From an uncultured Gemmatimonas sp. (GTDB lineage: Bacteria; Gemmatimonadota; Gemmatimonadetes; Gemmatimonadales; Gemmatimonadaceae): a stretch of 64,000 nt of DNA. The DNA is taken from positions 8,488 to 72,487 of the forward strand of contig CAYHCW010000001.1 in the NCBI GenBank assembly GCA_964355025.1, in the 5' to 3' direction. Below the pieces are notes generated by a model that saw only the letters and a program-made list of their open reading frames with translations, did no database searches and was not told where the DNA came from. Positions 35,701-62,246 of this stretch are shown here, in pieces (position 1 is the stretch's first letter; each line of letters begins with the position of its first letter). The translations under genes and the position numbers were made by a program.

Positions 35701-36797
35701 TACTGCGCGTTGCCGTTCTGGAACGTGCGTAGGTGCTCGGGGATGGGGTGCGTGATGTCGGGCGCGAGGTCGACGTTGTCTTGCTTCGCCCACCGCTCGG
35801 GCGGCTTCCACTTCTCCGGGCCGTCCGCCGAGTCCTCGGTGAAGGTGGGCGCCTGGCCTTGCGCGGCGGCGACCTCCTCAGCGGGCGGCGGCTCTACGTT
35901 CGGGAGCCCGGGGATGCTTTCGCTTTCGCCTCCCGCGCCGCTCTTTCCTTCTTCTTGTCCTTGACGAGCTGGTCGATTCGAGCGCGGGCGCTCGGTGGCA
36001 GGGCCCAATAGCCCGGAATCTCCACCGCTCCCAGCGCCTTGACCTCGCCGCTTGCCTTGTCCGCCATCGCCGCCATCCTTCCCCGGCGCCGCGCCGGCCT
36101 TGGGTCCGCTCTCGCCCGGGGTCTTCTTGCCGCCCTCACCGGGCTTCGCCGTGCCACCGCTCGAGGTCTTCTTGCCGTCGCCGGTGCCCGCACCTGCCGT
36201 TGTGCCACTCGCGGGCGCGGCGGGCTTCGCCGTCTTGCCCGCGGCGGCCTTCTTCTTGCGCTCCTCGTCCTCGACGGCCTTCTTCGCAGCGGCCTGCTCG
36301 GCGAGGTGCTGCTTCATGGCCTCTTCGCGCTTGCCGGGGGCGAGACGGCGCACCTTGAGCGGCATGGCCGCGTGCTTGGCGTGCGCGGCGATGGCGCCCT
36401 TGTGGTGCTCGCGGAGCATGGCCGAGAGCTCGGCCTTCGTGACCTTCTTCGTCTCGCCGGTCTCGTCGTGCTTGATGGTGAGCGTGCCGTCCTCGGCGAC
36501 GTGGGTGATGTGGAAGTGCCCGCCCTCGTGCATGAAGGCCGCGTGAAGGACGAAGTGGTCCTCGTGGGCAACGCCACGGCCGTGCTGCACCTGGTAGAAG
36601 TAGCGCCACGGCCGCTTCGGGTTCCCCGTCGGCACGCGCTTGAGGTACTTGTGCCCGAGGCCTTTTTGCAGGCCCCACAGTCGCTCGCCGTAGTCGGAGG
36701 GGAGCTCGAGCCACGCCGCAACATCGGGCGTCTCGACGGCGCCGAAGAGGCTCTTGAAGATGGCGCTGATGGGTCCGGAGCGTGGCAGCGTACTCAT
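32721..36797 (-). CDS. Giant virion-module protein P1358 with SNF2-type helicase core
   Basis: Contains the shared N-terminal module. Helicase motifs: I SPGLGKT (35595-35609), II FDESH (35304-35318), III YLSATP, and a late QVNGRMYRVGS. A K/G/A-rich low-complexity linker spans aa 170-300. Confidence 0.7.
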   Translation of the reverse strand: MSTLPRSGPISAIFKSLFGAVETPDVAAWLELPSDYGERLWGLQKGLGHKYLKRVPTGNPKRPWRYFYQVQHGRGVAHEDHFVLHAAFMHEGGHFHITHVAEDGTLTIKHDETGETKKVTKAELSAMLREHHKGAIAAHAKHAAMPLKVRRLAPGKREEAMKQHLAEQAAAKKAVEDEERKKKAAAGKTAKPAAPASGTTAGAGTGDGKKTSSGGTAKPGEGGKKTPGESGPKAGAAPGKDGGDGGQGKRRGQGAGSGGDSGLLGPATERPRSNRPARQGQEEGKSGAGGESESIPGLPNVEPPPAEEVAAAQGQAPTFTEDSADGPEKWKPPERWAKQDNVDLAPDITHPIPEHLRTFQNGNAQYQQVNDDQMYGAGQMLSAWARGHGIAIQDSPGLGKTVLGLTAMVAQGGKRNLIVIPEGGKKNLSVQWVDAADLFNIKAQRKVHPSDDGTFIASYGELYDNVVIGYKKDGKPVTEARLKPEFRNFDTIIFDESHNMANPDTARAQAGVQLQAHGQHVAYLSATPFTNIVDMHYLRHLGLYRTGPEFADWAAKAGAVVKPGASGYGDVPAKIENPSSAEPMTAIAATLLVDGRALKRGIDMSGVKTGFHVMSGGDDALPEHAQTTFRIADEVHAIAKDAGMDPTLLSAHMTNWAKAYWETLKADEAIERGKKALAEGKQVGFFTSYKEYKNSQLFGFARSLRRRAAKMRAKENHAQAHAFEMAAGRIDEKLKNLPPVINPVKKLVETFGGVGAVAEIHGGTNKDPVEEQKAFQAGTKKVVVCTMDKAGTGFSLHDIRGDAQREMINLSLPWSAAKMEQVNGRMYRVGSKSRANITYIVGDHPVERKNASRVAERAQRMGSLVDGNPGANDSAASLAAFEFGGDDDAEDIDKGLEGALDGAEGDGPAGEEGDDEPMTAGQIKKAAIQAAAADAYAHFRRVAEARKAGRDVIGEGHRERMKKKAAAADTGVRRAAAQLATVGIDVRRRSNGQYNLYGMRKHHKASAGRIAGIRGATADGHDQVVKLAEKLAVHDVKVTPLTVDEIGGSVRPRDIPGYIPPDPPPIGTKVTHTGGRWNGEASIVSHDGSGEVTVERPSTGGYYYGPIRHSAHVDDIEVAGTAKPAAGAEAPAPKPGPLGTAFGQQPTPSAPVAPPPTPKTTAPSAPALPAGHHAVGAKVKPTPAAQELLEDMGHGGNWTGTVTGHDGEKHHVEYTHPDTGAKATVPLRPKHLEAAAGATQPPPVVPPISTVGKPQLPPTAPSPAHHQSAADKGLRLHPMGTTHTFITGNTRQHYEDIKRKAPGARFDDHAQHGKGWRIGNEHLNAVFGGGTSPGLYRGPFGAIIGDLLKSAAQPRKVA

Positions 36798-36831
36798 GGT
36801 CGTCTCTCCCGTGGCCTCGCGCGCGAATGTA

Positions 36832-39800: not shown

Positions 39801-40137
39801 CGCGGTGGTGCTCGTGGACCACGTCGCGGAGCTGCGCGAGGGTCATCGTCCGCGTCTCGCCGCCCTCGTCGTGCTTGACCTTCACGGTGGCGCCGTTGCG
39901 CGCGATGACGTGGTAGTGGCCGCCGTCCACGCGGAAGGCGGCGCCGACCTGCATATCGTCGTCGTGCGCGAGGCCGCGCCCGAGACGCGCGGTGGCGCGG
40001 TAGATGTAGCGGTAGCGCGTCTTCCCTGTGCGCGTCGTGTGCCCCGTCGGTACTTTTGAAAGGTACTTATGGGCGAGGCCCTTGAGGAGAGCGAGGAGCG
40101 GGCCGGGGCGACGCCAGAATGGGACGGCGGCACTCAT
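36832..40137 (-). CDS. Giant virion-module protein P1101 with HExxH zincin-like motif
   Basis: Contains the shared N-terminal module. HELLH at 38128-38142, preceded by AHYQP..IAINMG and followed by TEVLARGVEQYL. The C-terminal segment WDYGEIRG..DGDALDAYIG resembles a pyrophosphatase-type core. ATGA overlap with the portal stop. Confidence 0.6.
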   Translation of the reverse strand: MSAAVPFWRRPGPLLALLKGLAHKYLSKVPTGHTTRTGKTRYRYIYRATARLGRGLAHDDDMQVGAAFRVDGGHYHVIARNGATVKVKHDEGGETRTMTLAQLRDVVHEHHRDALKEVGHRAAQDVHAARLHGTAKQRARAEAYHANIVRAFGGMMEWFAKIPAGGDAFHEAHAPKGHAQRRRVRDALALLEGSRTLEGAGSYDDKGRLNLSPSDLAALHIVQRHYGDLAGFAVGANWTEHDADARAWLKSLFTKTLGTDGADDATGLWKEGAGAFDGPVDRWAARSISRAVRALRSFVDFDLARDDLAIDRQRPLEGRAALAIERIIADARTAYYKDARGTRTAWEFLKNNLPQVRTQAGLVALKTLTSTSYKSGLVPAAAISELLGYTNLTRAEKGDEAAAHLRIVGTEPVGVLERAIEADKQLIRTTQVTAMERHHWDHRVAEATSAVNALLQPLYLGRDAQPFEAQTGIIDHHFTALKAEHSKVKQLFSERFGVQVVLDDDAYAAFATPAVGVRMGGSRDSDKEQSARWNRLSKVNFGADSVNIVPTVDKKASPAAKAAFNELNEASQSSTEARTATLRGVWHALEHFEKAAGFTKLDLSGLPLVISDRWVTAGANAHYQPTNSPTDVDRETMGKRKLQADTRSSIGPHIAINMGFEKSLGHELLHYIENRIAVRVQHQQVGNVSGTMTRLSPPHVRASAKVHRDLGLPHGPAGSTPDLLAAEHAMIKASTETRNHQYIGNMASWLVRHAGDAEFQTPDGRRLHDATEAEVAGVAGGKELLSFHRAVKATGGYERFKDKDAQGDVLRKLMTELGGDTYDASDERNAYYQMGTEVLARGVEQYLHQQLADTGVVAPTLTHVSYSGGAQSAYFDPTEFREKIAPHVKAVLAVFGDNLTKGARLLATLVKAGLAQVPHYAPHRPPMGPATKRRRKCPFVGTVDFQGLTVDVENARGSYREGVAEDGTAWRTLMRWDYGEIRGAGGMDGDALDAYIGPDHDSPLVVVVHQKDPATGKPDEDKVFLGWRTAVAAVAAYKRQYDAPGFYGGHVTMSIGRFKRLAMDPAREGKRIGRRAHAGAGTVAKAGPLATAFGVCNRLWT

Positions 40138-41819
40138 GCCGCTTCGACTATCCAGGCCCTTACGCCGCTATGGTGGCTCGGCGCCGGCACCATCGCGCGC
40201 CGAGCGCCGGGGCGACGCGGGCCCTTGCGCACGAGGCGGCCGTCGGCGAGCGCTTGCTCGCCCGACTTGACGAGCTGGCGCGTCCAGTCATCGACGCTGT
40301 TCCACCGCGTGCCCTTGATGGTGTCTGCATCCATGAAGCCGCTCTGCTGGTCGTCGGGCGGCATCGCGCCGTCGAACGGCTCGTCGTCCTCGCCCTCGCC
40401 GGGGGCGCCGCCTGGAGGCGCCGCGCCGTCACGCGCGCTCATAGCGGCCGACGCGAACTCCTGCGAGAGCGGGAGGTCGGCAATCTCGGAGTCGAGGCGC
40501 TCGAGGTCGTGCTCGTCGCGGAGCTCGTTCGGCGTCTTGTAGGTCTTGACCGCCTCCATCGCGAGCTTGTGGCGCTCAATCTCGGACATCGCGCCGAAGC
40601 CGCCGAACTCCATCATGAAGTCGGGGTCGAGCGGCTGGACAATCCACGTCGTGAACCACCATCCGAGCGAGCGAAGGATGGGGCGTAGCCCGCGCTCTTT
40701 GGAGGCGACGATGCGGTCGCCGGGACCTTGCGTGCTCAGCGCGGAGGTCTGGCCTTCGTTGCCGTAGATGAGGCCGTTTTCGGCCGGGTCCATGCCGTAG
40801 ACGAGGTGGGCGAGCTTGACGCGCCAGTTAATCCACTGGCTGTATTCCATATCCTTGTTCGTTTCGGACAGGGAGACGGCCTTGATGTCCTCGTGCATGC
40901 GCGGGTCGAGCTGAATGAAGGGCGTCCGCGCGGCGTTGCGCGGGCCCGTGAGCATGGCGGTGACGCTGCGCCGGAAGGCGCCCCAGACCTTACCGTCCAT
41001 GGTCGACATGACGGCGATGATGTGGTTCGCGTGCACGCCGTTGGTAAAGTTTACCGAATTGAACGTCTCGGCGTTCACGAGGTCGGTAATCACTACCACC
41101 AACTCGTCGAGCTCCGGAAAGCCGTACCGACCGATGGCCTGCAACGTGCGCGGGCGCCGGATGCCCCAAATCATCTCGTCGCGGGTGAACTCGGCGACGA
41201 CGCGGCCCGTGGAGTCGCGCTGCACCATCTCGGGCTCGCCGGGCTCGGGCCACGCCTGCCCACGCGCTCGGGCGGCGTCCTTGGGCTTGGCGAGGCGGAT
41301 GGTCGTCGCGTCGGAGGGCACGTAGCCGCAGGGCTTGCCGAGGCGGTTGTGCAGCACCTCGGCGTTGAGCTGGTCGTAGGTGAGCGAGTCGCGCATCATG
41401 GCCCGCACGGCGAGCTCCATGTTGCCGGGGCCCCATCGCCCGCCAGCGACCATGAGGACGTTCTCGATTTCGGTGGAGCGCCGCTCGGCGGCGGCCGTCA
41501 TCTTCGCCTTGCGGTCGCGCAGGGCCACACGGAAGCCGAGCTCGTAGGGCGACGACTGCGGCATGCAGAAGTCGGCCACCTGGTTGATGCGCGTGTTGAT
41601 GATGCCGCTGATGACGGGGACGCGGCTCATGGCGATGAGCTGGCGGTAGTCGAGGCCGAGCGCGCCGGGGTGGAAGGCGCTGTAGAGCGGGCTGGAGGTG
41701 TCCTCGAAGCCGAGGATGAGCGGGTCGACGTTGTGGACCTTGGGCTCGGCGCGGTTCGCTTCGATGAGCGCGGCGTCGCCGGGCTTTACGCCCTTGTCCT
41801 TGCGTCTGCGTCGGGCCAC
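40134..41819 (-). CDS. Portal protein
   Basis: 561 aa from GTG 41819, just after the upstream stop at 41828. Size, acidic C-terminus and position at the head of the late block next to MuF-associated genes support the call. The N-terminal 44 codons of the ORF-track entry were rejected. Confidence 0.6.
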   Translation of the reverse strand: MARRRRKDKGVKPGDAALIEANRAEPKVHNVDPLILGFEDTSSPLYSAFHPGALGLDYRQLIAMSRVPVISGIINTRINQVADFCMPQSSPYELGFRVALRDRKAKMTAAAERRSTEIENVLMVAGGRWGPGNMELAVRAMMRDSLTYDQLNAEVLHNRLGKPCGYVPSDATTIRLAKPKDAARARGQAWPEPGEPEMVQRDSTGRVVAEFTRDEMIWGIRRPRTLQAIGRYGFPELDELVVVITDLVNAETFNSVNFTNGVHANHIIAVMSTMDGKVWGAFRRSVTAMLTGPRNAARTPFIQLDPRMHEDIKAVSLSETNKDMEYSQWINWRVKLAHLVYGMDPAENGLIYGNEGQTSALSTQGPGDRIVASKERGLRPILRSLGWWFTTWIVQPLDPDFMMEFGGFGAMSEIERHKLAMEAVKTYKTPNELRDEHDLERLDSEIADLPLSQEFASAAMSARDGAAPPGGAPGEGEDDEPFDGAMPPDDQQSGFMDADTIKGTRWNSVDDWTRQLVKSGEQALADGRLVRKGPRRPGARRAMVPAPSHHSGVRAWIVEAA

Positions 41820-41827
41820 GTGCGGAC

Positions 41828-42181
41828 CTACCCGTGCGTCGCGACGCCGTAGGACTCGATGCCCACGACCGAATTGCCGGTCGTGCCGACGAGCACGATG
41901 CGGATGGCGCGGAAGCGCTGGCGCGGCAGGAGCGTGCCGAGCGCGGACCACGAGCCGTCGGGGCCGAGCGTGACGACGCTGCCCTCGCCGAGGCCGACGT
42001 CAATTTGCTCCCACTTGTCGGCCGGGCCGAGGACCCAGACGTTCCACGTGCCGCCGCCGAGGTCGATGCACTGCACTGTGTGCTGCGCGTAGCGCTCTTC
42101 GGTGGCGTAGCCGAGCGTGGACCTGTCGAGGTCGATGGTCGTGCCGAGGTCGGCTTCGAGGAGTCGTTTGGCCTTGTACAT
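41828..42181 (-). CDS. Small beta-rich protein, first gene of the late block
   Basis: 117 aa from ATG 42181 with a GGAGG RBS. RFRAIRIVLVGTTGN is weakly reminiscent of discoidin/galactose-binding-like folds. Confidence 0.4.
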   Translation of the reverse strand: MYKAKRLLEADLGTTIDLDRSTLGYATEERYAQHTVQCIDLGGGTWNVWVLGPADKWEQIDVGLGEGSVVTLGPDGSWSALGTLLPRQRFRAIRIVLVGTTGNSVVGIESYGVATHG

Positions 42182-42547: not shown

Positions 42548-42590
42548 TAGCGCTAATTATTTCCTTGCGTGATTAGCGCTGCGCTAATAG
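42548..42590 (+). promoter_or_regulatory. Operator/promoter: 17-bp palindrome ATTAGCGCTGCGCTAAT plus upstream half-site
   Basis: Perfect palindrome at 42572-42588 overlapping a -10-like TAATAG (42585-42590). Half-site TAGCGCTAAT at 42548-42557. AT-rich context, 45 nt upstream of ATG 42634. Confidence 0.5.
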
Positions 42591-42633: not shown

Positions 42634-42807
42634 ATGAAGACGCAAAAGCTCCTGACCGCCGACATCGGCGTGCACATCCGCACGGTGCGCGACCACTACA
42701 CGACGCCGCGCGGCGCCGAGTACCTGCGGGCGATGGGCGCCGCCTCCCCGGCGACCGAAATCACCCGATACGACGCGCTCCTCGCGCGGCTGGCGAAGGA
42801 GGGTTGA
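42634..42807 (+). CDS. 57-aa HTH-like protein (below the ORF-track size cutoff)
   Basis: Read from the sequence: MKTQKLLTADIGVHIRTVRDHYTTPRGAEYLRAMGAASPATEITRYDALLARLAKEG. GGAAGGA RBS. The stop is 3 nt before the next ATG. Confidence 0.45.
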   Translation: MKTQKLLTADIGVHIRTVRDHYTTPRGAEYLRAMGAASPATEITRYDALLARLAKEG

Positions 42808-42810
42808 GCC

Positions 42811-43209
42811 ATGAGCCGCGTTCGCTACGGCCAATCCGGTTACTCTGGCCTTTCGCGCTCCAACCGCGCCGTCGAGGCCGAGTCCAACGACCGCCTCCCC
42901 ATGACGCGAGCCGTCGCCGCCATCCGCAAGCGCGCCGGCTGCACGGCGCGGCAAGCCCGCGAGGCGTGCGCGGCCGTCGGTGCCGCCGAATGGCACCACG
43001 TGGGGAAGTACGCGGCTCGCGTCAACTACTACGACGTCGGCGCGGCGTGCAACTGGCTCGCCGCGAAAGACGCCATCGCACGGCTTCCGGGCGACGCCCG
43101 CGAGCGCTTCCGACGCAAGGAAGCGACGCTCGCCGACCTCGCCCGCGAAGCCGACACGGACGAGCGCACTGTCGAGCGCTTCCTGTATCGCGACTGGACC
43201 GGCGAGTAG
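42811..43209 (+). CDS. Hypothetical 132-aa protein
   Basis: Tightly follows the small HTH gene. SNRAVEAESNDRLPMTRAV at the N-terminus. Family not recognised. Confidence 0.4.
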   Translation: MSRVRYGQSGYSGLSRSNRAVEAESNDRLPMTRAVAAIRKRAGCTARQAREACAAVGAAEWHHVGKYAARVNYYDVGAACNWLAAKDAIARLPGDARERFRRKEATLADLAREADTDERTVERFLYRDWTGE

Positions 43210-43259
43210 TCCGACGTCGCGCCCAACCTCCGAGCCCGCGCTCGGGGGAACGGCGCGGC
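43205..43259 (+). repeat. Intergenic repeat copy 1 (AGTAGTCCGACGTCGCGCCC .. hairpin .. GGAACGGCGCGGC)
   Basis: Starts in the last sense codon and stop codon of 42811..43209. Hairpin CCGAGC/GCTCGG. Shares a 20-nt identical head and a 13-nt tail with copy 2. Confidence 0.6.
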
Positions 43260-43291
43260 ACCGGACGCCGCCCACGACCTGAGAGGACACC

Positions 43292-43732
43292 ATGAGCGAC
43301 TACGACGTGCGACTTGAGACCGACGCCGACTACCTCAACCTGCTGACGCGCAAGCTCTTCCATGCGGGCTTCGCGCAACGCGCGGTGAACGCCAAGTGGC
43401 CCGCCTTCGAGGCGGCCTTCATCGGCTTCGAGCCCATCCAGGTCGCGTGCATGGACGAAGACGACCTCGAGCGACTCGGGCGCAACCCGAACATCGTGCG
43501 CAACCGCCGCAAGCTGCGGGCGACCGTGAACAACGCGCGCCGGTTCTGTGAGGTGGCGGCCACGCACGGAAGCTGGCGGGCGTGGTTCATCGCGTCGCGC
43601 AATCAGCCCTACGAGTTGCGTGCCGAGGCGCTCCGGCAGAGCCTCGACCTCATCGGCCCGACGACGGCGTTCTACTTCATGCTCGAAGCGGGCGAAGCGA
43701 CGCTCGCTGACAAGCCGGAAGGCGTGCAGTAG
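43292..43732 (+). CDS. DNA-3-methyladenine glycosylase I (Tag)-like protein, N- and C-terminally reduced
   Basis: LFHAGFAQRAVNAKW.. FEPIQVACMDEDDLERL..NPNIVRNRRKLRATVNNARRF..GSWRAWF follows the Tag family core order (compare IIRHRGKIQA..NAR in E. coli Tag). Confidence 0.6.
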   Translation: MSDYDVRLETDADYLNLLTRKLFHAGFAQRAVNAKWPAFEAAFIGFEPIQVACMDEDDLERLGRNPNIVRNRRKLRATVNNARRFCEVAATHGSWRAWFIASRNQPYELRAEALRQSLDLIGPTTAFYFMLEAGEATLADKPEGVQ

Positions 43733-43787
43733 TCCGACGTCGCGCCCCACCGCCGAGGACCGTACATCCTCGACGGAACGGCGCGGC
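43728..43787 (+). repeat. Intergenic repeat copy 2
   Basis: Starts in the last sense codon and stop codon of the Tag-like gene. Same 20-nt head AGTAGTCCGACGTCGCGCCC, hairpin CGAGGA/TCCTCG, same tail GGAACGGCGCGGC. Confidence 0.6.
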
Positions 43788-43815
43788 GCCTGACTCGCCG
43801 CGAACGGAGGAACCT

Positions 43816-44436
43816 GTGAGCGACCGATTCCAAGAGACTGAGCGCGAGGGTGGCGAGTGCCCGTCGTGCGGTACGCCCGCCACATGGCGCGAGTGCTGCG
43901 AGTGCGACGAGGCGGCGTGGGTTATCGACTGCGGCCACTACGCGCAACCGCGACCGTTGGCGGCTGGACGGGTCGACGGATCCGAGGCGCATCGGACGTT
44001 CTGCGAGGCGCACGCCGAGCCGTTCGCCGACCCCGGCAAGGTCGATGTCCGCCCGACGCTCGCCAACTGCAAGGACTGCGGCGCCGAGCACGACGTGGAC
44101 ACGATGACGCTGCTCGCGGGCGACGTCGACACCTACCTCTGCAACGCCTGCGAGAACGAGCGCGAGCGGCCGAAGTACATCAACGTCTACAAGGTGACGC
44201 GGCACTACGGCGGCCCCGAAGAGGGCGGCTGGTGGTACGACGCCGGTGCTCCGCTCGCGAGCGTGCCCATCATGGACGGCATGGACACCGAGGCCACGCG
44301 CGAGCAACTCGCGGCGCACTTCGCCGGCGAGGCCTGCGGCGACATCGGCAGCGTGCTCGGCGGCGCCGAGGTGCACGTCACGCTCGAGCCGCACATGGCG
44401 ACGAGCTACCCGGCCACGCGGCCGCACTACGAGTAG
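43816..44436 (+). CDS. Cys-rich protein with conserved YGGPEEGGWWYD domain
   Basis: GTG start with a GGAGG RBS. N-terminal CxxC clusters (CPSCG, CCEC, CKDCG, CNAC). The C-terminal VYKVTRHYGGPEEGGWWYD motif is one I recall from uncharacterised phage proteins. Confidence 0.45.
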   Translation: MSDRFQETEREGGECPSCGTPATWRECCECDEAAWVIDCGHYAQPRPLAAGRVDGSEAHRTFCEAHAEPFADPGKVDVRPTLANCKDCGAEHDVDTMTLLAGDVDTYLCNACENERERPKYINVYKVTRHYGGPEEGGWWYDAGAPLASVPIMDGMDTEATREQLAAHFAGEACGDIGSVLGGAEVHVTLEPHMATSYPATRPHYE

Positions 44437-44439
44437 GAG

Positions 44440-44790
44440 ATGAGCGTGGACGACCTCGACCCGATGGACGCACTTCGGACGGTGCTCGCGGAGACCGACG
44501 ACCCGCCGACGCACTACCGCGGCAAGGTGCGCGCGGAGCCCTTCGTGCAGGGCGGCCACTACTGGCGCGAGCTCGACCCGGAAGAGGTGCTGCGCAAGCA
44601 CACGACGGAAGGCTCCGCGCACTTCGCTGGACTGGCCTACGTCGAGGACGAGCACGGCGAGCCGAAGCGCGGCTATCGCGAGCTACGCGGCGACCTCAAG
44701 GTATGGAAAGAGGGCGGGCGCATCTACCTCGGCCGCGACGCGGAGCGGTGGGAACTCGTGCCGCTTGACCTGTCCTTGGCGCGGCGCTAA
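44440..44790 (+). CDS. Hypothetical 116-aa protein
   Basis: The ATG is 3 nt after the upstream stop. Balanced composition. No motif recognised. Confidence 0.4.
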   Translation: MSVDDLDPMDALRTVLAETDDPPTHYRGKVRAEPFVQGGHYWRELDPEEVLRKHTTEGSAHFAGLAYVEDEHGEPKRGYRELRGDLKVWKEGGRIYLGRDAERWELVPLDLSLARR

Positions 44791-44813
44791 GTTCCCGTCT
44801 GGAGGTTCCACCG

Positions 44814-45071
44814 ATGGATGACACCCGTACCGAGGCGCAGCGCCTTCGTGACCTCGTCGAGGAGTTGCGCGGCCTCGGGCTCGACAAGGGCAAGGTTGCA
44901 AAGCGGCTCTGCGTGCACCCGACGACGCTGAGCCGCTACCTGGCGCGTGCTCGCGAGGACGACGGCGTCGAGCCCGTCGAGTCGCGCTACAGCATCGAGC
45001 CGAGCGCGCACGTCGTTGAGCTGGCGCGGCACGTCGTCGCCGAGGTCACGAGCGCGGCGGTGGCGACGTGA
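44814..45071 (+). CDS. HTH DNA-binding protein
   Basis: 85 aa. LDKGKVAKRLCVHPTTLSRYLARARE is a typical helix-turn-helix. Confidence 0.45.
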   Translation: MDDTRTEAQRLRDLVEELRGLGLDKGKVAKRLCVHPTTLSRYLARAREDDGVEPVESRYSIEPSAHVVELARHVVAEVTSAAVAT

Positions 45072-45310
45072 TGGCCCGCAAGCCATCGGGATGGACAGAG
45101 ACGCCGCCGACGGTGCCGGGGTGGTACTTCTTCGCTTGGCGCGTCACGCCGCCGCGAGATGCGGACGTTGATCCTGGGCCGTACTATCGCATCGCGCTCG
45201 TGGAGGCGTGGCGAAACGGTCGCAATGAGGTCGTCGCGCCGCCAACGCAAGGTGCGCCGTCGCGCGGCCTGTGGCACAAGGCCACGCTGCCACCCTTGCC
45301 GGCGCCCTGA
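45068..45310 (+). CDS. Hypothetical 80-aa protein
   Basis: ATGA-type overlap upstream. Trp/Pro-rich. No motif recognised. Confidence 0.35.
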   Translation: MMARKPSGWTETPPTVPGWYFFAWRVTPPRDADVDPGPYYRIALVEAWRNGRNEVVAPPTQGAPSRGLWHKATLPPLPAP

Positions 45311-45669
45311 TGGGCGTCGACTACGCCATCGCGTGCCTCGACTGCAAGCGGGCCGTCTACATCGACCGCATCGGGCGGGACATCGTGTACGCCCACGAGG
45401 CTCCCGACGGGACCGCCGACGAGCCGATGGTGCTTGCTGTGCCCGCCGACGAGCGCGAATGCGATGGCAGTCTCCTCAAGCCCGTGGTCACGCAGGGCTT
45501 GCTCGTCCTCGCCGAGGTGGACAGCGACCGAGACGCCGGCGAATGGGTCGCCATCTCCTCGTGGTGCAACGGCCACCCGTCGCCGTGCCGTCTCGTGCTC
45601 CTCGATGACGGGTGGGGCAATACGATGCACGCCGCTCGCGACGGGTGGCCGCCGATGGAGTCGTTGTGA
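45310..45669 (+). CDS. Hypothetical 119-aa protein
   Basis: ATG 45310 overlaps the upstream TGA by 1 nt. N-terminal CLDCK. Confidence 0.35.
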   Translation: MGVDYAIACLDCKRAVYIDRIGRDIVYAHEAPDGTADEPMVLAVPADERECDGSLLKPVVTQGLLVLAEVDSDRDAGEWVAISSWCNGHPSPCRLVLLDDGWGNTMHAARDGWPPMESL

Positions 45670-47291
45670 CCGACACTCCCCGCCGCATCGTCGCCGCGTT
45701 CCAAGGCTCCGAGCCGATGCCGTTCGACGGCACGATGGACTTGCCGCCCGAGACGCCGCTCTACGGCGACACGTTCGATGGCGAGGCGCTGACGCTCGGC
45801 GGCTATTGGCGGAGCATCGAGGAGGAGTACCGCACGCTCTTCGCCGTCGAAGATGCCATCGCCCGTGGGCATCTCGACGCGGCCACGCGAGAACGTCTAC
45901 AGGCCAAGGTCGCTGCGATTCGGGACCGTGACGACGGTGACCTAGGCGTCCTCCAATGGACCGTCGAGAACGCCGTGCCGCTCGCGAGGCACGCGAAGCT
46001 CGAGGCGCAGCTTTGGCGCATCCACGTCGCGACGCCGGGCGGCGAGGGCATCCCGCCCGAGGTCGTCGTGCTGCCGCCCGAAGCGCCGCCTGCGATGTCG
46101 GCGGCGAGCGCTGCCGTGCCAATGGTTGCGGTGACTTCGGATAATTCCGGCGAACGCCCACCCGCCGTGCGCGCCTGCGACGACCCCGGCCATCAACGCC
46201 GCGCCGTCCTTTCGCGCTGGGACAAGGACAACGAGCGCCCGACGCGCCAGGCCGTCGCCGCACTTGCGCGAGCGGGGCCGATGACGCCGCCCGAGGTGGC
46301 GCTCGCCGTCTGCATCAAGCTCCGCTACGCCTACAAGCTCTTGCGCCGGATGGTCGTGCGCGGCGAGGCCGTGAACCCGCGCTTCGGCGTGTACGCGCTC
46401 CCTGATACGCCCATGCCCGTCGAGAAGCTGCCGTCCGAGGTCGCGCGTGGGGCGGGACGGTCCGAGCGGCGCATGGCGACGATGCGCGCGGAGCGTGCGA
46501 CGACGGCAACCCCTGCAACAACGCCCAATGCGGACGCGTGCAACGGCAAGGACAACGACTGCGACGACGGCGACGCGTGCACGACGGACGCCTCGAATGA
46601 GGTCGTAAAACAGGAAACGCAGCCTCCCGGTGTCACGATTACCGAGGTGCCCACGTCCGCGTCCGACGACTCCGCTCCGAATGAGATTGAAAGGCCGCAA
46701 TCGCACGACGGCGACGCTGTAGCTCACTCCAACGCGCCGACGCCTGCGACGACGGCGACGAAGCGGCGCCGAGCCCGCCCGTGGACCACCGAGGACGACG
46801 CCGAGCTGCGACGCCTCGCGCCAACGAGTGCAACACGGAAGGTTGCCGCCACGCTCGAACGTGATTGGAAGGACGTCTCGCAACGGGCCGAGGTGCTCTG
46901 CGTATTCTTCAAGCGTGACCGCGATTTCTTCCGCCAGGAAGCGCAGAAGGATGAAGAGCGCGTCCACGACTTCGAGTCGGGCGAGTCGTCGCTCTGCGGT
47001 CTGGCAGAAGGGGACGTGTCCGCGCGCTTCGACTGCGTGCGACGAGGGCAACGCACGTCCGAGGCCGAGTGCATGGCGTGCTTCACGGACGCGCACCGGC
47101 GCGGGCATCTCTCGAAGCCCGCCGACCGCCAGCACGTCGCGTGGCGCTGCGCGCAGGGCGCAGCGCTGCGACTGCGCTACGCCTTCGAGTTGTCGCCGAC
47201 GCAGGGCACCATCGAGGCGCTGCTCGACTACTCGACGCTGAGCCCGGCGTGTCCAGAGCACAAGCGGGCGTGCCGGGCGCTCAGGGTGTGA
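45666..47291 (+). CDS. Multidomain DNA-binding candidate (wHTH + Cys/Asp motif + Myb/SANT-like)
   Basis: GTG 45666 (GTGA overlap). MTPPEVALAVCIKLRYAYKLLRRMVVRGEAV is wHTH-like. CNGKDNDCDDGDAC is MopE-type metal-motif-like. RPWTTEDDAELRRLA..VAATLERDWKDVSQRAEVL is Myb/SANT-like. Confidence 0.45.
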   Translation: MTDTPRRIVAAFQGSEPMPFDGTMDLPPETPLYGDTFDGEALTLGGYWRSIEEEYRTLFAVEDAIARGHLDAATRERLQAKVAAIRDRDDGDLGVLQWTVENAVPLARHAKLEAQLWRIHVATPGGEGIPPEVVVLPPEAPPAMSAASAAVPMVAVTSDNSGERPPAVRACDDPGHQRRAVLSRWDKDNERPTRQAVAALARAGPMTPPEVALAVCIKLRYAYKLLRRMVVRGEAVNPRFGVYALPDTPMPVEKLPSEVARGAGRSERRMATMRAERATTATPATTPNADACNGKDNDCDDGDACTTDASNEVVKQETQPPGVTITEVPTSASDDSAPNEIERPQSHDGDAVAHSNAPTPATTATKRRRARPWTTEDDAELRRLAPTSATRKVAATLERDWKDVSQRAEVLCVFFKRDRDFFRQEAQKDEERVHDFESGESSLCGLAEGDVSARFDCVRRGQRTSEAECMACFTDAHRRGHLSKPADRQHVAWRCAQGAALRLRYAFELSPTQGTIEALLDYSTLSPACPEHKRACRALRV

Positions 47292-47328
47292 CGGCCTCGC
47301 CCGTCATCGAATAAAACATTTATCACTA

Positions 47329-47374
47329 TCGCGCTAAAATACTTCGTGACAACGAATTAGCGCAGCGCTAATCT
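47329..47374 (+). promoter_or_regulatory. Operator/promoter: 17-bp palindrome ATTAGCGCAGCGCTAAT plus upstream half-site
   Basis: Palindrome at 47356-47372. GTGACA (47346-47351), a 17-nt spacer, TAATCT (47369-47374). Half-site TCGCGCTAAA at 47329-47338. 41 nt upstream of ATG 47414. Confidence 0.5.
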
Positions 47375-47413
47375 TAGGTCGTGGGTTGGAACTGCAACGG
47401 AACGGAGAACCGA

Positions 47414-47632
47414 ATGAGCCACTACCAGAAGACCATCGCCGAAGACCTCGCCAAGCTCGGCCGCGCCGACGTCGAGCCCAAGTTTGTCGAGGCCATCATG
47501 CGCGGCGAGTACGGCACGCTGGACCACCTCTCGCGGGCGAAGTTTGCCGCTGAGGCGCGCGTGGGCGTCGAGTGCTGGGACGAATGCGATGACGCGATGC
47601 GGCGCGAGATTCCCGCGTCCTACGGCCTGTAG
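47414..47632 (+). CDS. Hypothetical 72-aa protein
   Basis: ATG 47414 with a CGGAGAA RBS. MSHYQKTIAEDLAKLGR.. No motif recognised. Confidence 0.4.
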   Translation: MSHYQKTIAEDLAKLGRADVEPKFVEAIMRGEYGTLDHLSRAKFAAEARVGVECWDECDDAMRREIPASYGL

Positions 47633-47643
47633 AGGAGACGACG

Positions 47644-47868
47644 ATGAACCGCGATACGAAAATCAAGTGGTGGGACGTGGACGATATGGACGCGGGCGCC
47701 GTAGAAGAGGGCACGGCGGGCGACTTGCTCGACTACGACGAGACGGGCGAGATTGCCGATGCTCTCGCGGAACTCGACGCGGGCGCCGAGTACGCCCTCG
47801 TCGGCGGTGGCGCCGCGCCGTGCGTGCGTATCGAGTTGGCTGTCGACGACGGCGACGAGGAGGCGTGA
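47644..47868 (+). CDS. Small highly acidic protein
   Basis: 74 aa, rich in Asp/Glu (WWDVDDMDAGAVEEG..DDGDEEA). Confidence 0.35.
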   Translation: MNRDTKIKWWDVDDMDAGAVEEGTAGDLLDYDETGEIADALAELDAGAEYALVGGGAAPCVRIELAVDDGDEEA

Positions 47869-47870
47869 CC

Positions 47871-48464
47871 ATGGCCATCACGACCGGCTTCGCTGAGTTG
47901 GACCGCATCATCAACCCCACCGCGCCCGGACTGCCTACCGGGCTCATCTCCGAGGTCTACGGCGCGGACGCAGCGGCGCTCAATGCCGTGGCCGCCGCCA
48001 TCGTCAACCGTGGCGCCGTGGCCTTCGACTGCCGCGACTGGCCCGCTGAATCCGTCGCGCGTCGCGCCTCCGACGCCGTGCACGCTGGGCAGAGCGTCAT
48101 CATTGAGCACGTCGAGGCGTGGCGTGCGACGAGCTCCATTGAGCACGATGGGCCCGGTGACGCGCCCGACGTTTTACCAACCGACTGGTGCTACGCGAGC
48201 GAGCGCACGCTGTCGCGGTTTCTCCGCGCGCTCTCGCCACTCGCCACGCGGACGGGCGCCGCTGCGGTGTTCACGCGTTACGAGGTCGCCCGCCGACCCT
48301 ACACAACCGATGCGGCGGCCGCCGTCCTCGTGCGCCCGCTGCGCTTCTACGCGAGCGTTCGCGTCGAGTTGCGCCCGCTCGGCAAGCACTCGGTGCGAGC
48401 CTTCGTCAGCAAGAACAAGCTCGTAGCGCCGCACGAGACGCTCGACCTGCTCTACGTCAGCTAG
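47871..48464 (+). CDS. RecA-fold protein lacking the Walker A P-loop
   Basis: TTGFAELDRII..GLPTGLISEVYG aligns with RecA STGSLSLD..GGLPMGRIVEIYG. RFYASVRVELRP..FVSKNKLVAPHETLDLLY aligns with FYASVRLDIRR..VVKNKIAAPF..ILY. GPESSGKT is replaced by GADAAALN. Confidence 0.65.
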   Translation: MAITTGFAELDRIINPTAPGLPTGLISEVYGADAAALNAVAAAIVNRGAVAFDCRDWPAESVARRASDAVHAGQSVIIEHVEAWRATSSIEHDGPGDAPDVLPTDWCYASERTLSRFLRALSPLATRTGAAAVFTRYEVARRPYTTDAAAAVLVRPLRFYASVRVELRPLGKHSVRAFVSKNKLVAPHETLDLLYVS

Positions 48465-48541
48465 CGCGATTCCCGTTGACCCGCTACGCCAACCGCCGTA
48501 CCTTCAAGCCTTGCCATGGGCGCGCACATGGGCGCCTCTCC

Positions 48542-48823
48542 TCAGAGTTGTGGTTCTGCCTCGTCCTCTCGCGCTTCGCCCAATGACCGCTGCGAGAGGG
48601 CGAGGCCCCTTTCCTCCGTGATGGGCGTGTAGGGCGACCTCGGCTTGACGCGGCGCGGCAGCGGCGCCCCGGGAACGGCCAACTCGATGACCTCGTCGGC
48701 GCCGCACGTCGCGCAGTGATAGAGCGCGTGGCTTCCACTCGCGGTGACCTCGGCGCGGCCGACGGTGCAGCCGTTCGGGCACTTGGCGTTGACGTACCAC
48801 TCGCCTGAGTGCACCTCACTCAC
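48542..48823 (-). CDS. Small zinc-ribbon protein downstream of terminase
   Basis: 93 aa from GTG 48823 (GTGA overlap with the terminase stop). CPNGC .. CATCG. Confidence 0.4.
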   Translation of the reverse strand: MSEVHSGEWYVNAKCPNGCTVGRAEVTASGSHALYHCATCGADEVIELAVPGAPLPRRVKPRSPYTPITEERGLALSQRSLGEAREDEAEPQL

Positions 48824-50613
48824 CAGCGGTCGCGCCCGAGGTCCATGATGTCCTTGAGCTCCTCCCACATCTCCGACGTGTCCTCGAAGTTGCCCGCCCG
48901 GTGCACGGACGGCGACTCGCCGGCGTCGATGACCCGCTGAGCTTCGGCGGCGACCTCTTGCAGCGTCTCGATACCGCTGGACGAGCGGTGCTGACCTCGG
49001 ATGGCCATCTTGAGGTGGCGGACGGCCATCCAGAGCGACATCACCTCGTCGGCGGTGTGCACGCCCGGGGTGGGGTCGAAGAGCTGCAATCCTTCGACGA
49101 GTTGCGCCATGAGCGGATGCATCTCACCGTTCTCGTCGCAGGGAATCGCGAGGAGCCCGAGCATCATGTCCGAGGCCATGGAGTCGATGCCGTAGTCGGC
49201 GTCGTGCTTCTTGTCGAAGGTCGTGAAGCACGGCTCGACGTGCAGGCCCTTGGCGGCGGCTTGCTCGGCTATCCAGAGCTGCGCGGACACGGACTCGACG
49301 ACGAAGGTTGGCGGACGCGGATACTCCGGGTCGCGCTTGTCGGAGTAGCGTTCGTCGAGGTCACGGCACCGGGAGAAGAACTCGTGCGACGTCCACCGCG
49401 CGTCGGGCGCGTCGGTCTCGAGGTAGATGGGCGCCATGACGCCGTCGGGCGCTTGGAGGACGGGTACGAGCGCGTTCTTGTCGGCGTCGCGGACCTTGCT
49501 GAATGCGAGGTCGGCGCCGATGGCGATGCGCGCGCCTTCGGGCAAGCTGTCGACCTTGGAGCGGAGCTGCATGCCACGGCCCACGTCGAGCGCCTTCTCG
49601 ATGGCGCCGCGGAAGCGGTTGCCTTCCACGAGGCGGTTGCGGCGGCAGAAGAGCGCGCGCTTCCACGAGTTCGGTTGCTGCCGAATCCAGCGGCAGACGC
49701 GCTCAACGCTCCACCGCGCTGGCCAGTGCACCATGCCCGGCGCGGGCCCGGCGCCGCCCGAGTGCGCGTAGATTTGCCACGCCTCGATGCTGCCCGTGGC
49801 GACCGGCATCTCGTAGTGCGTCCATCCCTCGCGACTCGCCGACACGCTGGCCGCGTCGTTCTCCCACCATGCATTACAGAGGAACCAGATGCGGCCGTCG
49901 TCAGCGACGCGGCCCGCGAGCGTGTCCTCAATCTTGCCGAGCGTTTCCTTGCGCCGGTGGTCCGTGAGCGTGTTCTCGCGCGTGAGGATGTCGTCGAGGA
50001 TGAGGATGTCGAGGCGGGCACTGAGGATGCCCGAGTCGAGGCCGCACGCGCGGATGGACGGGTCCTTGCGGTTGAAGCCCGGCGCTTGGATGCGGTAGCC
50101 GTCGCGGCGGGACCACGGCTCGCCGGGCAGGATGGTTGGGAAGACCTCGTGGAAAGCGCGGTGGCCCTCAAACGGCGACGGCTCGATGTACTTTGACATC
50201 ATGGTCGCGATGTTCTGCGCGAGAATGGCCGTGCTGGAGAACGTGGCGATGGTCAACGACGGGTCGCGGCCGAGGAGCCACAAGGCGCAGATGGCGGCGA
50301 TGTTCGTCTTGCCGCACTCGACGGAGCCTGTCACGAGCACCTTGCGGAGGTCGGGCCGGTCGACCTGGAAGCCCGTCAGCTCGCGGATGAGCTGCGCGTG
50401 GTAGGGCTGGAGGTCGACGCGGGCGCCGGTGCGCTCGTCGCGCAGAACGTAATGCACGAAGGCGATGGGGTCGATGCGGCAGAGCTCGTGTCCGAGTGCG
50501 CGCCGCTTCGGGTCGTTATCGGAGAGGGCGAGGTCGAGCCGCAGGAGGTTGCGGCGGATGTCCTTCCACTCGGCGACGGCGGCGGGCGGGCCTCGGGGTG
50601 TTGCTGCGCTCAC
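48820..50613 (-). CDS. Terminase large subunit
   Basis: Walker A VTGSVECGKTN and Walker B LDILILDDI. The C-terminal half has acidic residues consistent with an RNaseH-like nuclease. 597 aa. Confidence 0.75.
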   Translation of the reverse strand: MSAATPRGPPAAVAEWKDIRRNLLRLDLALSDNDPKRRALGHELCRIDPIAFVHYVLRDERTGARVDLQPYHAQLIRELTGFQVDRPDLRKVLVTGSVECGKTNIAAICALWLLGRDPSLTIATFSSTAILAQNIATMMSKYIEPSPFEGHRAFHEVFPTILPGEPWSRRDGYRIQAPGFNRKDPSIRACGLDSGILSARLDILILDDILTRENTLTDHRRKETLGKIEDTLAGRVADDGRIWFLCNAWWENDAASVSASREGWTHYEMPVATGSIEAWQIYAHSGGAGPAPGMVHWPARWSVERVCRWIRQQPNSWKRALFCRRNRLVEGNRFRGAIEKALDVGRGMQLRSKVDSLPEGARIAIGADLAFSKVRDADKNALVPVLQAPDGVMAPIYLETDAPDARWTSHEFFSRCRDLDERYSDKRDPEYPRPPTFVVESVSAQLWIAEQAAAKGLHVEPCFTTFDKKHDADYGIDSMASDMMLGLLAIPCDENGEMHPLMAQLVEGLQLFDPTPGVHTADEVMSLWMAVRHLKMAIRGQHRSSSGIETLQEVAAEAQRVIDAGESPSVHRAGNFEDTSEMWEELKDIMDLGRDRW

Positions 50614-62181: not shown

Positions 62182-62193
62182 GCAACAAAGTTA

Positions 62194-62222: not shown

Positions 62223-62246
62223 ACCGAATCAAGTGAGGCGAGCCCA

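What the first reader, a model, noticed from the sequence alone, without database searches (positions are those of the whole stretch)
47871..48464. RecA-fold protein with the P-loop erased: a candidate RecA mimic or modulator
The 197-aa product aligns by eye with the RecA core from the STG..LD..GGLP.G.I.EIYG segment (here TTGFAELDRII..GLPTGLISEVYG) to the FYASVR..VVKNK.A.PF..ILY segment (here RFYASVRVELRP..FVSKNKLVAPHETLDLLY). Where RecA has GPESSGKT, this protein has GADAAALN. The Walker B aspartate context is also altered (VIIEHVE). It therefore cannot bind ATP in the canonical way but may still dock onto RecA filaments or ssDNA, in the manner of ImuA/RadB-like inactive paralogues. A phage could use such a protein to cap or poison host RecA and so blunt SOS or RecA-dependent defence triggering, or to assist its own recombinase. 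It is the last gene of the second palindrome-controlled unit.
Basis: partly seen in the sequence, partly recalled or inferred. Interest (0 to 1): 0.65.

Follow-up and report, generated by a model that had tools for sequence, protein, structure and literature searches.

The report
Phage RecA core without ATP site
An uncultured freshwater phage carries a real, selectively maintained 197-residue copy of the bacterial recombinase RecA that has lost its ATP-binding loop, catalytic residues, DNA-binding loops and both end domains but kept the face that touches a neighbouring RecA, so it most likely works by docking onto host RecA rather than as an enzyme; no experiment has tested this.

Summary
Window 47871-48464 (+) is a real gene (GC by codon position 0.69/0.54/0.86, GAGGAGG 7 nt upstream). 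Its 197-aa product is a very divergent bacterial-type RecA core.

- **Homology:** PDB RecA 1.4e-7. A profile of its few relatives hits RecAs at about 1e-80. The AF2 model has pTM 0.70, and the Foldseek top 50 are all RecA.
- **What is lost:** the P-loop is physically deleted (GADAA-----ALN; no Gly71, Lys72 or Thr73). Glu96, Gln194, loop L1, the L2 glycines, the N-terminal polymerisation helix and the C-terminal domain are also gone.
- **What is kept:** the residues RecA uses in trans on a neighbour's ATP site (F217, R222, K248-N249-K250). They are invariant in all seven known mini-RecA relatives.
- **Selection:** a roughly 95% identical variant from other lakes keeps the erased P-loop, with pN/pS about 0.25. 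Another related genome lacks the gene precisely, so it is accessory.
- **Correction:** VIIEHVE is not Walker B. It aligns to RecA strand LLxSQPD, and the Walker B aspartate is retained.

Best reading: a pseudo-ATPase RecA decoy that binds host RecA protomers or filament ends. Whether it inhibits or assists is unresolved. It is not an ImuA, Sak4 or SulA family member by profile. It is a new variant of a known kind, of moderate interest, and its function is untested.

The parts
47871..48464 (+). CDS of the 197-aa P-loop-less mini-RecA (core only: no N-terminal helix, no C-terminal domain)
47857..47863 (+). Shine-Dalgarno-like GAGGAGG, 7 nt before the ATG. The upstream gene's stop TGA (47866-47868) is 2 nt before the ATG, which suggests translational coupling.
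   Evidence: sequence read directly
47961..47984 (+). P-loop remnant G31-ADAAALN38. A 5-residue deletion removes Gly71-Lys72-Thr73 of RecA. In the AF2 model strand 26-31 runs almost directly into helix 34-45.
   Evidence: the variant reads GANAAALD with no indel
48168..48185 (+). Walker B-like remnant D100-VLPT-D105. Both Asp of RecA 'VDxxVVDS' are retained, but the hydrophobic strand is disrupted and pLDDT is low.
48186..48200 (+). Site of the 18-residue deletion that removes RecA loop L1 and its flank (between WCYA and SERTLSRFLRAL)
48345..48362 (+). F159-YASV-R164, equivalent to RecA F217...R222 (subunit-interface strand). Fully retained.
48411..48419 (+). K181-N182-K183, equivalent to RecA K248-N249-K250 (lysines that reach the neighbour's ATP in trans). 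Invariant in all seven mini-RecAs.
47644..47868 (+). Upstream co-transcribed 74-aa protein, extremely acidic (net charge about -18, pI 4.05). No family match. Possible partner or DNA mimic (inference only).
47381..47632 (+). First gene of the three-gene unit, 83 aa (72 aa in the public gene call), no family match
47356..47372 (.). Perfect 17-bp palindrome ATTAGCGCAGCGCTAAT in the AT-rich gap 47295-47380 ahead of the unit. Operator-like.
42572..42588 (.). The only other perfect copy of the palindrome (ATTAGCGCTGCGCTAAT), ahead of the larger + strand cassette 42634-47291

Best explanation
The gene encodes a minimised, catalytically dead member of the bacterial RecA family (a pseudo-ATPase).

Shown: it is homologous to the RecA core. 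It lacks the P-loop Gly-Lys-Thr, the catalytic Glu96, the gamma-phosphate sensor Gln194, DNA-binding loop L1, the L2 glycines, the N-terminal polymerisation helix and the C-terminal domain. It keeps the residues that RecA uses in trans at the subunit interface. It is under purifying selection, and it is an accessory gene of a contractile-tailed freshwater phage, expressed from its own operator-bearing three-gene unit.

Inferred: because it can neither bind ATP or DNA nor polymerise by itself, it acts through protein contacts. Most probably it docks with its F217/R222/K248-K250-like face onto the ATP-site face of a host RecA protomer or filament end. There it behaves as a non-extendable subunit that caps or destabilises RecA filaments. 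That would damp recombination, SOS induction, or RecA-dependent triggering of resident prophages and defences during infection.

The identity part is near certain (about 0.95). The docking-on-RecA part is the stated confidence. The sign of the effect (inhibition rather than stabilisation) is the least secure step.
For: Homology: PDB RecA 1.4e-7 with N- and C-terminal blocks in register. Only RecA and Rad51 models are hit in Pfam and NCBIfam. The family profile hits RecAs at about 1e-80. The AF2 model has pLDDT 66 and pTM 0.70, and the Foldseek PDB top 50 are all RecA, TMq 0.60-0.66, E 2.6e-11.

Losses: 43 of 141 columns that are >=90% conserved in 87 RecAs are retained. All cis ATP-site and DNA-loop residues are gone.

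Retention: K/R216, F217, R222, K248, N249 and K250 are invariant in the target and in all six other mini-RecAs, including four whose own ATP sites are degenerate.

Selection: the roughly 95% variant has 16 synonymous and 11 replacement changes, pN/pS about 0.25, and no indel. Two of the replacements fall inside the P-loop remnant, and none falls in residues 1-32 or 103-174. The 99% variant P0126 has the same loop.

Accessory status: one contig in run X5 joins 47875 to 48476, precisely omitting the gene.

Precedent: M. xanthus ImuA, a RecA-like core without RecA's N- and C-termini, binds RecA1 and inhibits its DNA binding and strand exchange (bioRxiv 10.1101/2020.12.14.422803; PMC11002988). Mobile elements encode RecA-filament inhibitors: PsiB, RamT/RamA (PMC11841131) and AriS (PMC9043618). 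RAD51 paralogue complexes cap RAD51 filaments (PDB 9svx and 9q29, listed).

The roles of K248/K250 (trans contacts to ATP) and F217 (interface allostery) rest on established RecA structural literature, recalled and not tested here.
Against: The host, and therefore its RecA, is unknown.

The retained motifs lie in core beta-strands and may be kept for folding alone. The surface that accepts a neighbour's N-terminal helix (strand beta3 and the following helix, residues about 75-109) is poorly conserved, has pLDDT below 50, and collects most replacements. Without its own N-terminal helix, the protein's affinity for a filament end may be low.

The structural match is partly circular, because the alignment fed to AF2 consisted of RecAs. 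Metatranscriptomes from the same samples show no signal on the gene, which is uninformative. About 8.5 kb of the contig could not be seen, so a phage recombinase partner cannot be excluded.
Confidence: 0.4

Rival explanations
1. Positive accessory factor. Like Rad51 paralogues without ATPase motifs, or like RecA/ImuA in translesion mutasomes, the dead core binds RecA filament ends to stabilise them. Alternatively it offers a RecA-like core surface to proteins carrying a RecA-N-terminal-like motif (Y-family polymerases, ImuB), recruiting host repair or translesion machinery to phage DNA.
For: It shows the same retained interface residues. A Tag-type 3-methyladenine glycosylase lies in the same + strand cassette (Pfam 1.3e-18), giving a DNA-damage theme. 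Y-family polymerases and ImuB bind the RecA/ImuA core through a RecA-NT-like motif (PMC6511836; PMC11791113). RAD51 paralogue caps are stabilising (PDB titles).
Against: No polymerase, ImuB or DnaE2 is found among the window's ORFs of 450 aa or more. No RecA-NT-like motif is found in any window ORF (best E 1.1, in a non-coding frame). The acceptor surface for such a motif is the least conserved part of the protein.
Confidence: 0.2
2. Repurposed scaffold unrelated to RecA biology. The RecA-like fold survives only as a stable alpha/beta platform that binds a different partner, for example the co-translated, extremely acidic 74-aa protein or the 83-aa protein of the same unit, or a host target not connected with recombination.
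For: The tight three-gene unit has stop-start coupling. The neighbours are orphan proteins with no family match. Only 30% of RecA's highly conserved columns are retained.
Against: It does not explain why exactly the trans-acting K-N-K and F..R residues are invariant across seven otherwise very divergent mini-RecAs, while the cis residues decay.
Confidence: 0.17
3. Decaying relic of a phage recA with no remaining function.
For: Motif loss is massive. The gene is absent from a related genome. The P-loop remnant and residues 71-102 accumulate replacements. Only five remote relatives exist in 1.84 billion representatives.
Against: The frame is intact, with strong third-position GC (0.86) and an RBS. 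pN/pS is about 0.25 with no indels or stops in a variant about 5% diverged, and long stretches have no replacements. Similar degenerate mini-RecAs persist in unrelated high-GC contigs.
Confidence: 0.1
4. SulA-like cell-division inhibitor. SulA also has a RecA-like fold without a P-loop and blocks FtsZ, and phages are known to encode FtsZ inhibitors.
For: It is a small RecA-like fold with no nucleotide site. SulA's RecA-like fold is general knowledge and was not tested here.
Against: There is no Pfam or NCBIfam hit other than RecA and Rad51 at E<=10. RecA-specific motifs (FYASVR, KNK) are retained. The top 50 structural matches are all RecA.
Confidence: 0.04

Closest known systems
[quoted passage not shown]
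   Same: Both are RecA-derived cores that lack RecA's N-terminal polymerisation motif and C-terminal domain, and neither self-polymerises. M. xanthus ImuA binds RecA1 and inhibits its DNA binding and strand exchange (bioRxiv 10.1101/2020.12.14.422803; PMC11002988; PMC6511836).
   Different: The target has no ImuA profile hit and no imuB/dnaE2 neighbours, and it is phage-borne. ImuA is now reported to be enzymatically active. M. xanthus ImuA hydrolyses ATP using R71/T72 (PMC11002988), and M. smegmatis ImuA is a hexameric helicase-nuclease (bioRxiv 10.64898/2026.08.14.744951). The target has the loop deleted, with no basic residue in it at all. The target is also closer in sequence to true RecA (FYASVR and KNK retained).
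Bacterial RecA (PF00154 / TIGR02012)
   Same: Homologous core with the same strand and helix order. The STGxxxLDxxxGxGGxPxGxxxExxG block, helix 'MSQALRKL', FYASVR and VxKNKxAPF are conserved.
   Different: It scores below both curated cut-offs. It lacks Walker A GKT, Glu96, Gln194, L1, the L2 glycines, a 9-residue beta-hairpin, the N-terminal helix and the C-terminal domain. It is 197 aa against about 350 aa.
Rad51 paralogues that act as filament caps or mediators (BCDX2/CX3; Shu-complex-type paralogues without ATPase motifs)
   Same: The concept is shared: a recombinase-fold subunit that cannot form filaments itself binds filament ends (PDB 9svx and 9q29 titles).
   Different: These are eukaryotic, multi-subunit and mostly stimulatory. 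The likeness is analogy of architecture only, beyond the shared RecA/Rad51 superfamily.
Sak4 / RadB-type core-only RecA-like proteins of phages
   Same: Both are small core-only RecA-superfamily proteins encoded by phages (PMC5928155; PMC2896510).
   Different: Sak4 keeps a Walker A motif and anneals ssDNA. The target has no PHROG hit at all, is nearer to bacterial RecA than to RadA/Rad51, and lacks both the P-loop and the DNA loops.
Mobile-element RecA modulators PsiB, RamT/RamA, AriS, DinI, RecX
   Same: The proposed outcome is the same: a reduction or modulation of RecA filaments by a small element-encoded protein (PMC11841131; PMC9043618).
   Different: None of these is a RecA homologue, and the target has no sequence match to any of them (Pfam at E<=10). 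If the hypothesis holds, the target would reach that outcome by mimicking a RecA subunit.

Membership tests
RecA (bacterial recombinase) | Profile match above the curated threshold (PF00154 GA 27 bits; TIGR02012 325 bits) | tested here: not met
   19.2 bits and 19.3 bits. Homology itself is secure: 1.4e-7 to PDB RecA and family profile about 1e-80.
RecA (bacterial recombinase) | Walker A GPESSGKT (Lys72/Thr73) | tested here: not met
   GADAA-----ALN; G71->A, K72 and T73 deleted
RecA (bacterial recombinase) | Catalytic Glu96 and gamma-phosphate sensor Gln194 | tested here: not met
   E96->R and Q194->Y by alignment
RecA (bacterial recombinase) | DNA-binding loops L1 and L2 | tested here: not met
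   L1 region deleted (18 residues). L2 shortened, with Gly211/212 -> Ala. Model pLDDT <50 at 140-154.
RecA (bacterial recombinase) | N-terminal polymerisation helix and C-terminal domain | tested here: not met
   The protein starts at the RecA 'STG' block and ends at 'ILY'. No RecA-NT-like motif elsewhere in the window.
RecA (bacterial recombinase) | Trans-acting interface residues F217, R222, K248, K250 | tested here: met
   F159, R164, K181, K183; invariant in all mini-RecAs
ImuA | Match to an ImuA family profile | tested here: not met
   The NCBIfam scan at E<=10 returns only RecA and RAD51. I assume, but did not verify, that the release contains an ImuA model.
ImuA | Linkage with imuB (inactive Y-family polymerase) and dnaE2 | tested here: not met
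   No polymerase among the window's ORFs of 450 aa or more. About 8.5 kb of the contig is unseen.
ImuA | RecA-like core without RecA N- and C-termini | tested here: met
   definition from bioRxiv 10.1101/2020.12.14.422803 and PMC6511836
ImuA | Functional variant P-loop (Arg-Thr/Ser) supporting ATPase | tested here: not met
   No Lys or Arg in the loop, which is 5 residues shorter. ImuA data from PMC11002988.
Sak4 (phage core-only RecA-like annealase) | Match to Sak4 PHROG or Pfam profiles; Walker A present | tested here: not met
   Zero PHROG hits at E<=10. No Walker A.
SulA | Match to a SulA profile | tested here: not met
   No Pfam hit other than RecA and Rad51 at E<=10
Known RecA regulators (PsiB, DinI, RecX) | Sequence-profile match | tested here: not met
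   No such Pfam or NCBIfam hit for the target or its two upstream neighbours
Anti-phage defence proteins (PADLOC) | Profile match | tested here: not met
   No hit at E<=0.1 for the target and seven cassette proteins
RecA-filament capping/poisoning protein (functional class) | Physical binding to RecA and an effect on filaments, SOS or recombination | not testable with these tools
   Needs complex prediction or biochemistry, and the host is unknown.

The most novel reading that the evidence does not exclude
A phage has turned RecA itself into an anti-RecA weapon. A stripped, ATP-blind, DNA-blind RecA subunit keeps only the trans-acting lysine and Phe face. It plugs onto the ATP site of the terminal host RecA protomer, so the filament cannot grow. 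This blunts SOS and RecA-dependent prophage or defence activation. It would be the founding member of a small clade of mobile-element 'dead mini-RecA' decoys (P0003, P0004/P0128, P0005), possibly working together with the co-translated hyper-acidic 74-aa protein as a DNA mimic.
Probability: 0.25. Interest if true: 0.75.

Novelty: new variant of a known kind. Interest (0 to 1): 0.55.

Why it matters
Mobile elements are known to tame host RecA with unrelated small proteins (PsiB, RamT/RamA, AriS). Cells use inactive or specialised RecA/Rad51 relatives (ImuA, Rad51 paralogues) to steer filaments. A phage-encoded RecA-derived pseudo-ATPase would join these two themes.

It also offers a natural dissection of RecA. 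It shows which residues suffice for subunit docking once ATP binding, DNA binding and polymerisation are removed. The pattern of cis-site loss with trans-site retention across seven independent sequences gives directly testable point mutants (K181, K183, F159, R164).

If it blocks SOS, it is a template for peptide or protein SOS inhibitors and a new class of phage counter-measure. If it does nothing to RecA, it is an instructive case of fold recycling.

Tried and rejected
- **Close relatives:** the word-indexed protein search finds only the protein itself. Megablast of the 8-kb neighbourhood and tblastn of the large terminase against 50,697 phage records find nothing. tblastn of the target gives only weak hits to full-size phage RecA/UvsX.
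- **IMG/VR and JGI scans with P0001, P0002 and P0003**: these returned about 190 loci. The 108 loci from the two IMG/VR scans were measured: nearly all are full-length RecAs of 315-417 aa with an intact Walker A, and the few shorter ones look cut by contig ends. The 80 JGI loci were not measured. P0002's own contig was not recovered, so these scans gave no context for the mini-RecA clade.
- **Host or organism:** an exact search in GTDB genomes found no match.
- **A cis-encoded partner with a RecA-N-terminal-like motif:** an HMM of 41 RecA N-termini against all 823 window ORFs gave nothing (best E 1.1).
- **Shared neighbours between the window and the P0003 contig:** none.
- **Other family libraries:** PADLOC, PHROGs and SulA/ImuA/Sak4 profiles gave no hits.
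- **BFVD fold search:** only full-size recombinases and DnaB helicases (272 aa or more), with no small viral analogue.
- **Expression in same-sample metatranscriptomes:** no signal.
- **The remaining 8.5 kb of the 72.5-kb contig:** not retrievable.
- **First AF2 run with 44 sequences:** poor (pLDDT 56). The second run with 96 sequences was usable.
- **Longer ORF from TTG 47484 (326 aa):** rejected on codon-position GC.

Full report
**1. The observation**

It is a real gene.
- GC content by codon position is 0.69/0.54/0.86, the coding signature of this 69% GC genome.
- The longer in-frame ORF from TTG 47484 has a non-coding profile (0.69/0.79/0.53) and overlaps two upstream genes read in other frames.
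- A GAGGAGG box lies 7 nt before the ATG. The ATG follows the TGA of the preceding 74-codon gene by two bases.

**2. It is a RecA homologue**

- Against Pfam and NCBIfam at E<=10, only RecA (9e-4; 5.7e-4) and Rad51 models respond. Both RecA scores are below the curated cut-offs.
- Against PDB sequences the best match is D. radiodurans RecA (1.4e-7). Two blocks align in register: residues 3-50 with RecA 55-100, and residues 81-174 with RecA 161-247.
- An exhaustive phmmer search of 1.84 billion representatives finds only five relatives at E<1e-3. All are RecA-like proteins of 192-280 aa.
- A profile of the six sequences hits thousands of bona fide RecAs at about 1e-80.
- An AF2 model built on 96 sequences reaches pLDDT 66 and pTM 0.70. 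Its 50 best PDB matches are all bacterial RecA (TMq 0.60-0.66, E down to 2.6e-11). This structural agreement is partly circular, because the input alignment consisted of RecAs. The sequence evidence stands without it.

**3. What is lost and what is kept**

In an alignment with 87 full-length RecAs, the target retains 43 of the 141 columns that are >=90% conserved.

Missing:
- The whole N-terminal helix/strand.
- The C-terminal domain.
- Gly71-Lys72-Thr73, through a 5-residue deletion (GADAA-----ALN).
- Glu96 (now Arg) and Gln194 (now Tyr).
- An 18-residue stretch including loop L1.
- Gly211/212 of L2.
- A 9-residue beta-hairpin.

In the model, strand 26-31 runs almost directly into helix 34-45, so the P-loop is physically absent.

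Kept:
- The STG..LD..G.P.G...E.YG block.
- The helix equivalent to MSQALRKL.
- Both Walker B aspartates (D100, D105).
- F159-Y-A-S-V-R164 (RecA F217-R222).
- K181-N-K183 (RecA K248-N249-K250).

That peptide aligns with RecA strand LLxSQPD. RecA residue numbers and roles (K72/T73 P-loop, E96 catalytic, Q194 sensor, K248/K250 trans contacts to ATP, F217 interface allostery) are established knowledge recalled by me, anchored on motifs, and not computed here.

**4. The relatives show a pattern**

All seven mini-RecAs (the target, P0002-P0006 and P0128) lack RecA's two terminal domains. P0001-P0005 also share the hairpin deletion.

Their own ATP sites are eroded to different degrees:
- P0003: GKR instead of GKT, and Q194D.
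- P0004/P0128: DRH, E96V and Q194D, with a 3-residue indel inside the loop remnant between two 97% identical sequences.
- P0005: G71D and Q194R.
- P0006: E96D and Q194R.
- P0002: canonical.

K/R216, F217 (Tyr in P0005), R222, K248, N249 and K250 are retained in all seven. Decay of cis residues with retention of trans residues is what one expects of a subunit that still contacts a nucleotide bound to a partner protomer. It is equally what pure fold constraints on core strands could give. This is the main uncertainty.

**5. Is the erased loop real and maintained?**

- A 99% identical copy from another assembly has the same loop.
- Contigs from a different lake study (runs X3, X8) carry a variant about 95% identical across the gene, with no indel.
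- The listed differences give 16 synonymous and 11 replacement changes, pN/pS about 0.25. A few differences were not listed by the tool.
- The variant's loop reads GANAAALD, so two of the eleven replacements sit in the remnant. Most of the others lie in residues 71-102. There are none in residues 1-32 or 103-174.
- One contig of run X5 joins 47875 to 48476, omitting the gene exactly. This rests on a single contig with 34 nt on the shorter side.

The gene is therefore an accessory, presence/absence-polymorphic gene whose product is under purifying selection.

**6. Context**

The window is from a freshwater metagenome and is a contractile-tailed phage. It encodes:
- large terminase, 48820-50613 (-);
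- portal, 40134-41951 (-);
- major head protein, 25011-26576 (-);
- tail sheath, 16886-18868 (-);
- baseplate J and an amidase;
- primase-helicase, 59510-61870 (+).

It has no close cultured relative, and the host is unknown.

A 5.8-kb + strand cassette (42634-48464) is wedged between the portal and terminase operons. It holds HTH proteins, a Tag-type 3-methyladenine glycosylase (1.3e-18), orphan proteins and, last, the target.

The perfect palindrome ATTAGCGCNGCGCTAAT occurs only at 42572 and 47356 (0.15 expected by chance). Each copy sits in an AT-rich gap. The target is therefore the third gene of a separately controlled unit: 83 aa, a hyper-acidic 74 aa (net charge about -18), then the mini-RecA.

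No recombinase, polymerase, ImuB or DnaE2 was found among the window's large ORFs. No ORF carries a RecA-N-terminal-like motif. About 8.5 kb of the contig could not be retrieved.

The best full-length relative, P0003, sits on a 66% GC, 4.3-kb contig full of small orphan ORFs plus a RadC-like gene. This looks like a phage or mobile-element early region, but it shares no other gene with the window.

**7. Mechanism**

Shown: the protein cannot bind ATP in the RecA manner, lacks RecA's DNA-binding loops, and lacks the helix by which RecA polymerises.

Inferred: it acts by protein-protein contact. The most economical partner is RecA itself, approached through the retained F217/R222/K248-K250-like face that in a filament lies on the neighbour's ATP site. 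The protein presents no ATP site or N-terminal helix of its own, so the next protomer could not be added. It would then act as a cap or poison.

Precedents:
- M. xanthus ImuA binds RecA1 and inhibits filament formation and strand exchange (bioRxiv 10.1101/2020.12.14.422803; PMC11002988).
- PsiB, RamT/RamA and AriS are mobile-element proteins that lower RecA filaments or SOS (PMC11841131; PMC9043618).
- RAD51 paralogue complexes cap RAD51 filaments (PDB titles).

The opposite sign (stabiliser or adaptor), a RecA-unrelated partner, or decay remain possible. I rate them at 0.20, 0.17 and 0.10.

**8. Comparison with known families**

In architecture it works like an ImuA or Rad51-paralogue type of specialised RecA relative, but it is not a member of ImuA, Sak4 or SulA by profile.

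The simple 'ImuA is dead' picture is also outdated. M. xanthus ImuA is an ATPase that uses Arg71/Thr72 (PMC11002988), and M. smegmatis ImuA is reported as a hexameric helicase-nuclease (bioRxiv 10.64898/2026.08.14.744951). The target has no basic residue in a loop that is 5 residues shorter, so it goes further than ImuA.

No comparably small viral analogue appears among the best BFVD structural matches. My literature searches found no description of a phage-encoded P-loop-less RecA core.

**9. Verdict**

This is a new variant of a known kind, interest 0.55.

Noticed in passing
window 47644-47868 (+): The 74-aa protein translationally coupled to the mini-RecA is extremely acidic (22 Asp+Glu, 4 Lys+Arg, net charge about -18, pI 4.05) and has no family match. 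This composition is typical of DNA-mimic proteins. It may be a partner of the mini-RecA or a separate anti-host factor.
   Followed up: partly
window 47875 -> 48476 (run X5): A contig from another metagenome joins these two positions, skipping 600 nt. That is a precise absence of the mini-RecA gene in a related phage genome, a presence/absence polymorphism. It rests on a single contig with 34 nt on the shorter side.
   Followed up: partly
window 29872-40137 (-): Three giant ORFs lie next to the portal gene: 950 aa with a DarA_C domain, 1358 aa with an SNF2/Strawberry-notch-type helicase, and 1101 aa with LPD1 and InPase 'polyvalent protein' domains. They resemble the P1 Dar-type capsid-packaged anti-restriction proteins.
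   Followed up: no
window 42634-48464 (+), between portal (40134-41951, -) and large terminase (48820-50613, -): The packaging module is split by a 5.8-kb opposite-strand cassette of regulators, a glycosylase and orphan genes. This is an unusual position for early or accessory genes.
   Followed up: partly
window 43292-43732 (+): A Tag-type 3-methyladenine DNA glycosylase I homologue (Pfam Adenine_glyco, 1.3e-18) is encoded in the same cassette, with no PHROG match. This is a DNA-repair or DNA-modification-related function carried by the phage.
   Followed up: no
window 42549-42588, 47330-47372 and 44775-44791: The operator-like palindrome ATTAGCGCNGCGCTAAT occurs as two perfect copies, each with a nearby half-site-like TAGCGCTAA / CGCGCTAAA. 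A 3-mismatch copy (CTTGGCGCGGCGCTAAG) lies just before the 85-aa HTH gene at 44814, which is a candidate cognate regulator. It does not resemble the LexA boxes I know of.
   Followed up: partly
window 46490-46590 (inside the 559-aa ORF 45612-47291): A low-complexity Thr/Asp/Cys-rich stretch (…TTATPATTPNADACNGKDNDCDDGDACTTD…) attracts short partial matches from many unrelated metatranscriptome contigs. These are probably spurious matches to a common repeat-like motif.
   Followed up: no
L189 (contig of P0003), 1572-2009 (-): The closest full-length relative of the target sits about 1.4 kb from a divergently transcribed RadC-like (PF04002) gene, amid eight small orphan ORFs on a 66% GC contig. 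This has the look of a phage or mobile-element early region.
   Followed up: partly
P0004 vs P0128: Two 97% identical degenerate mini-RecAs differ by a 3-residue indel exactly inside the P-loop remnant (GA---DRHQVT vs GAHRQDRHQVT). This is direct evidence of relaxed constraint on that loop in this clade.
   Followed up: yes
window 62178-62726 (+) (L191-L193 gene calls): A 159-182-aa protein with a DnaA C-terminal (Bac_DnaA_C) DNA-binding domain lies downstream of the primase-helicase. It is a possible phage replication-origin binding protein.
   Followed up: no
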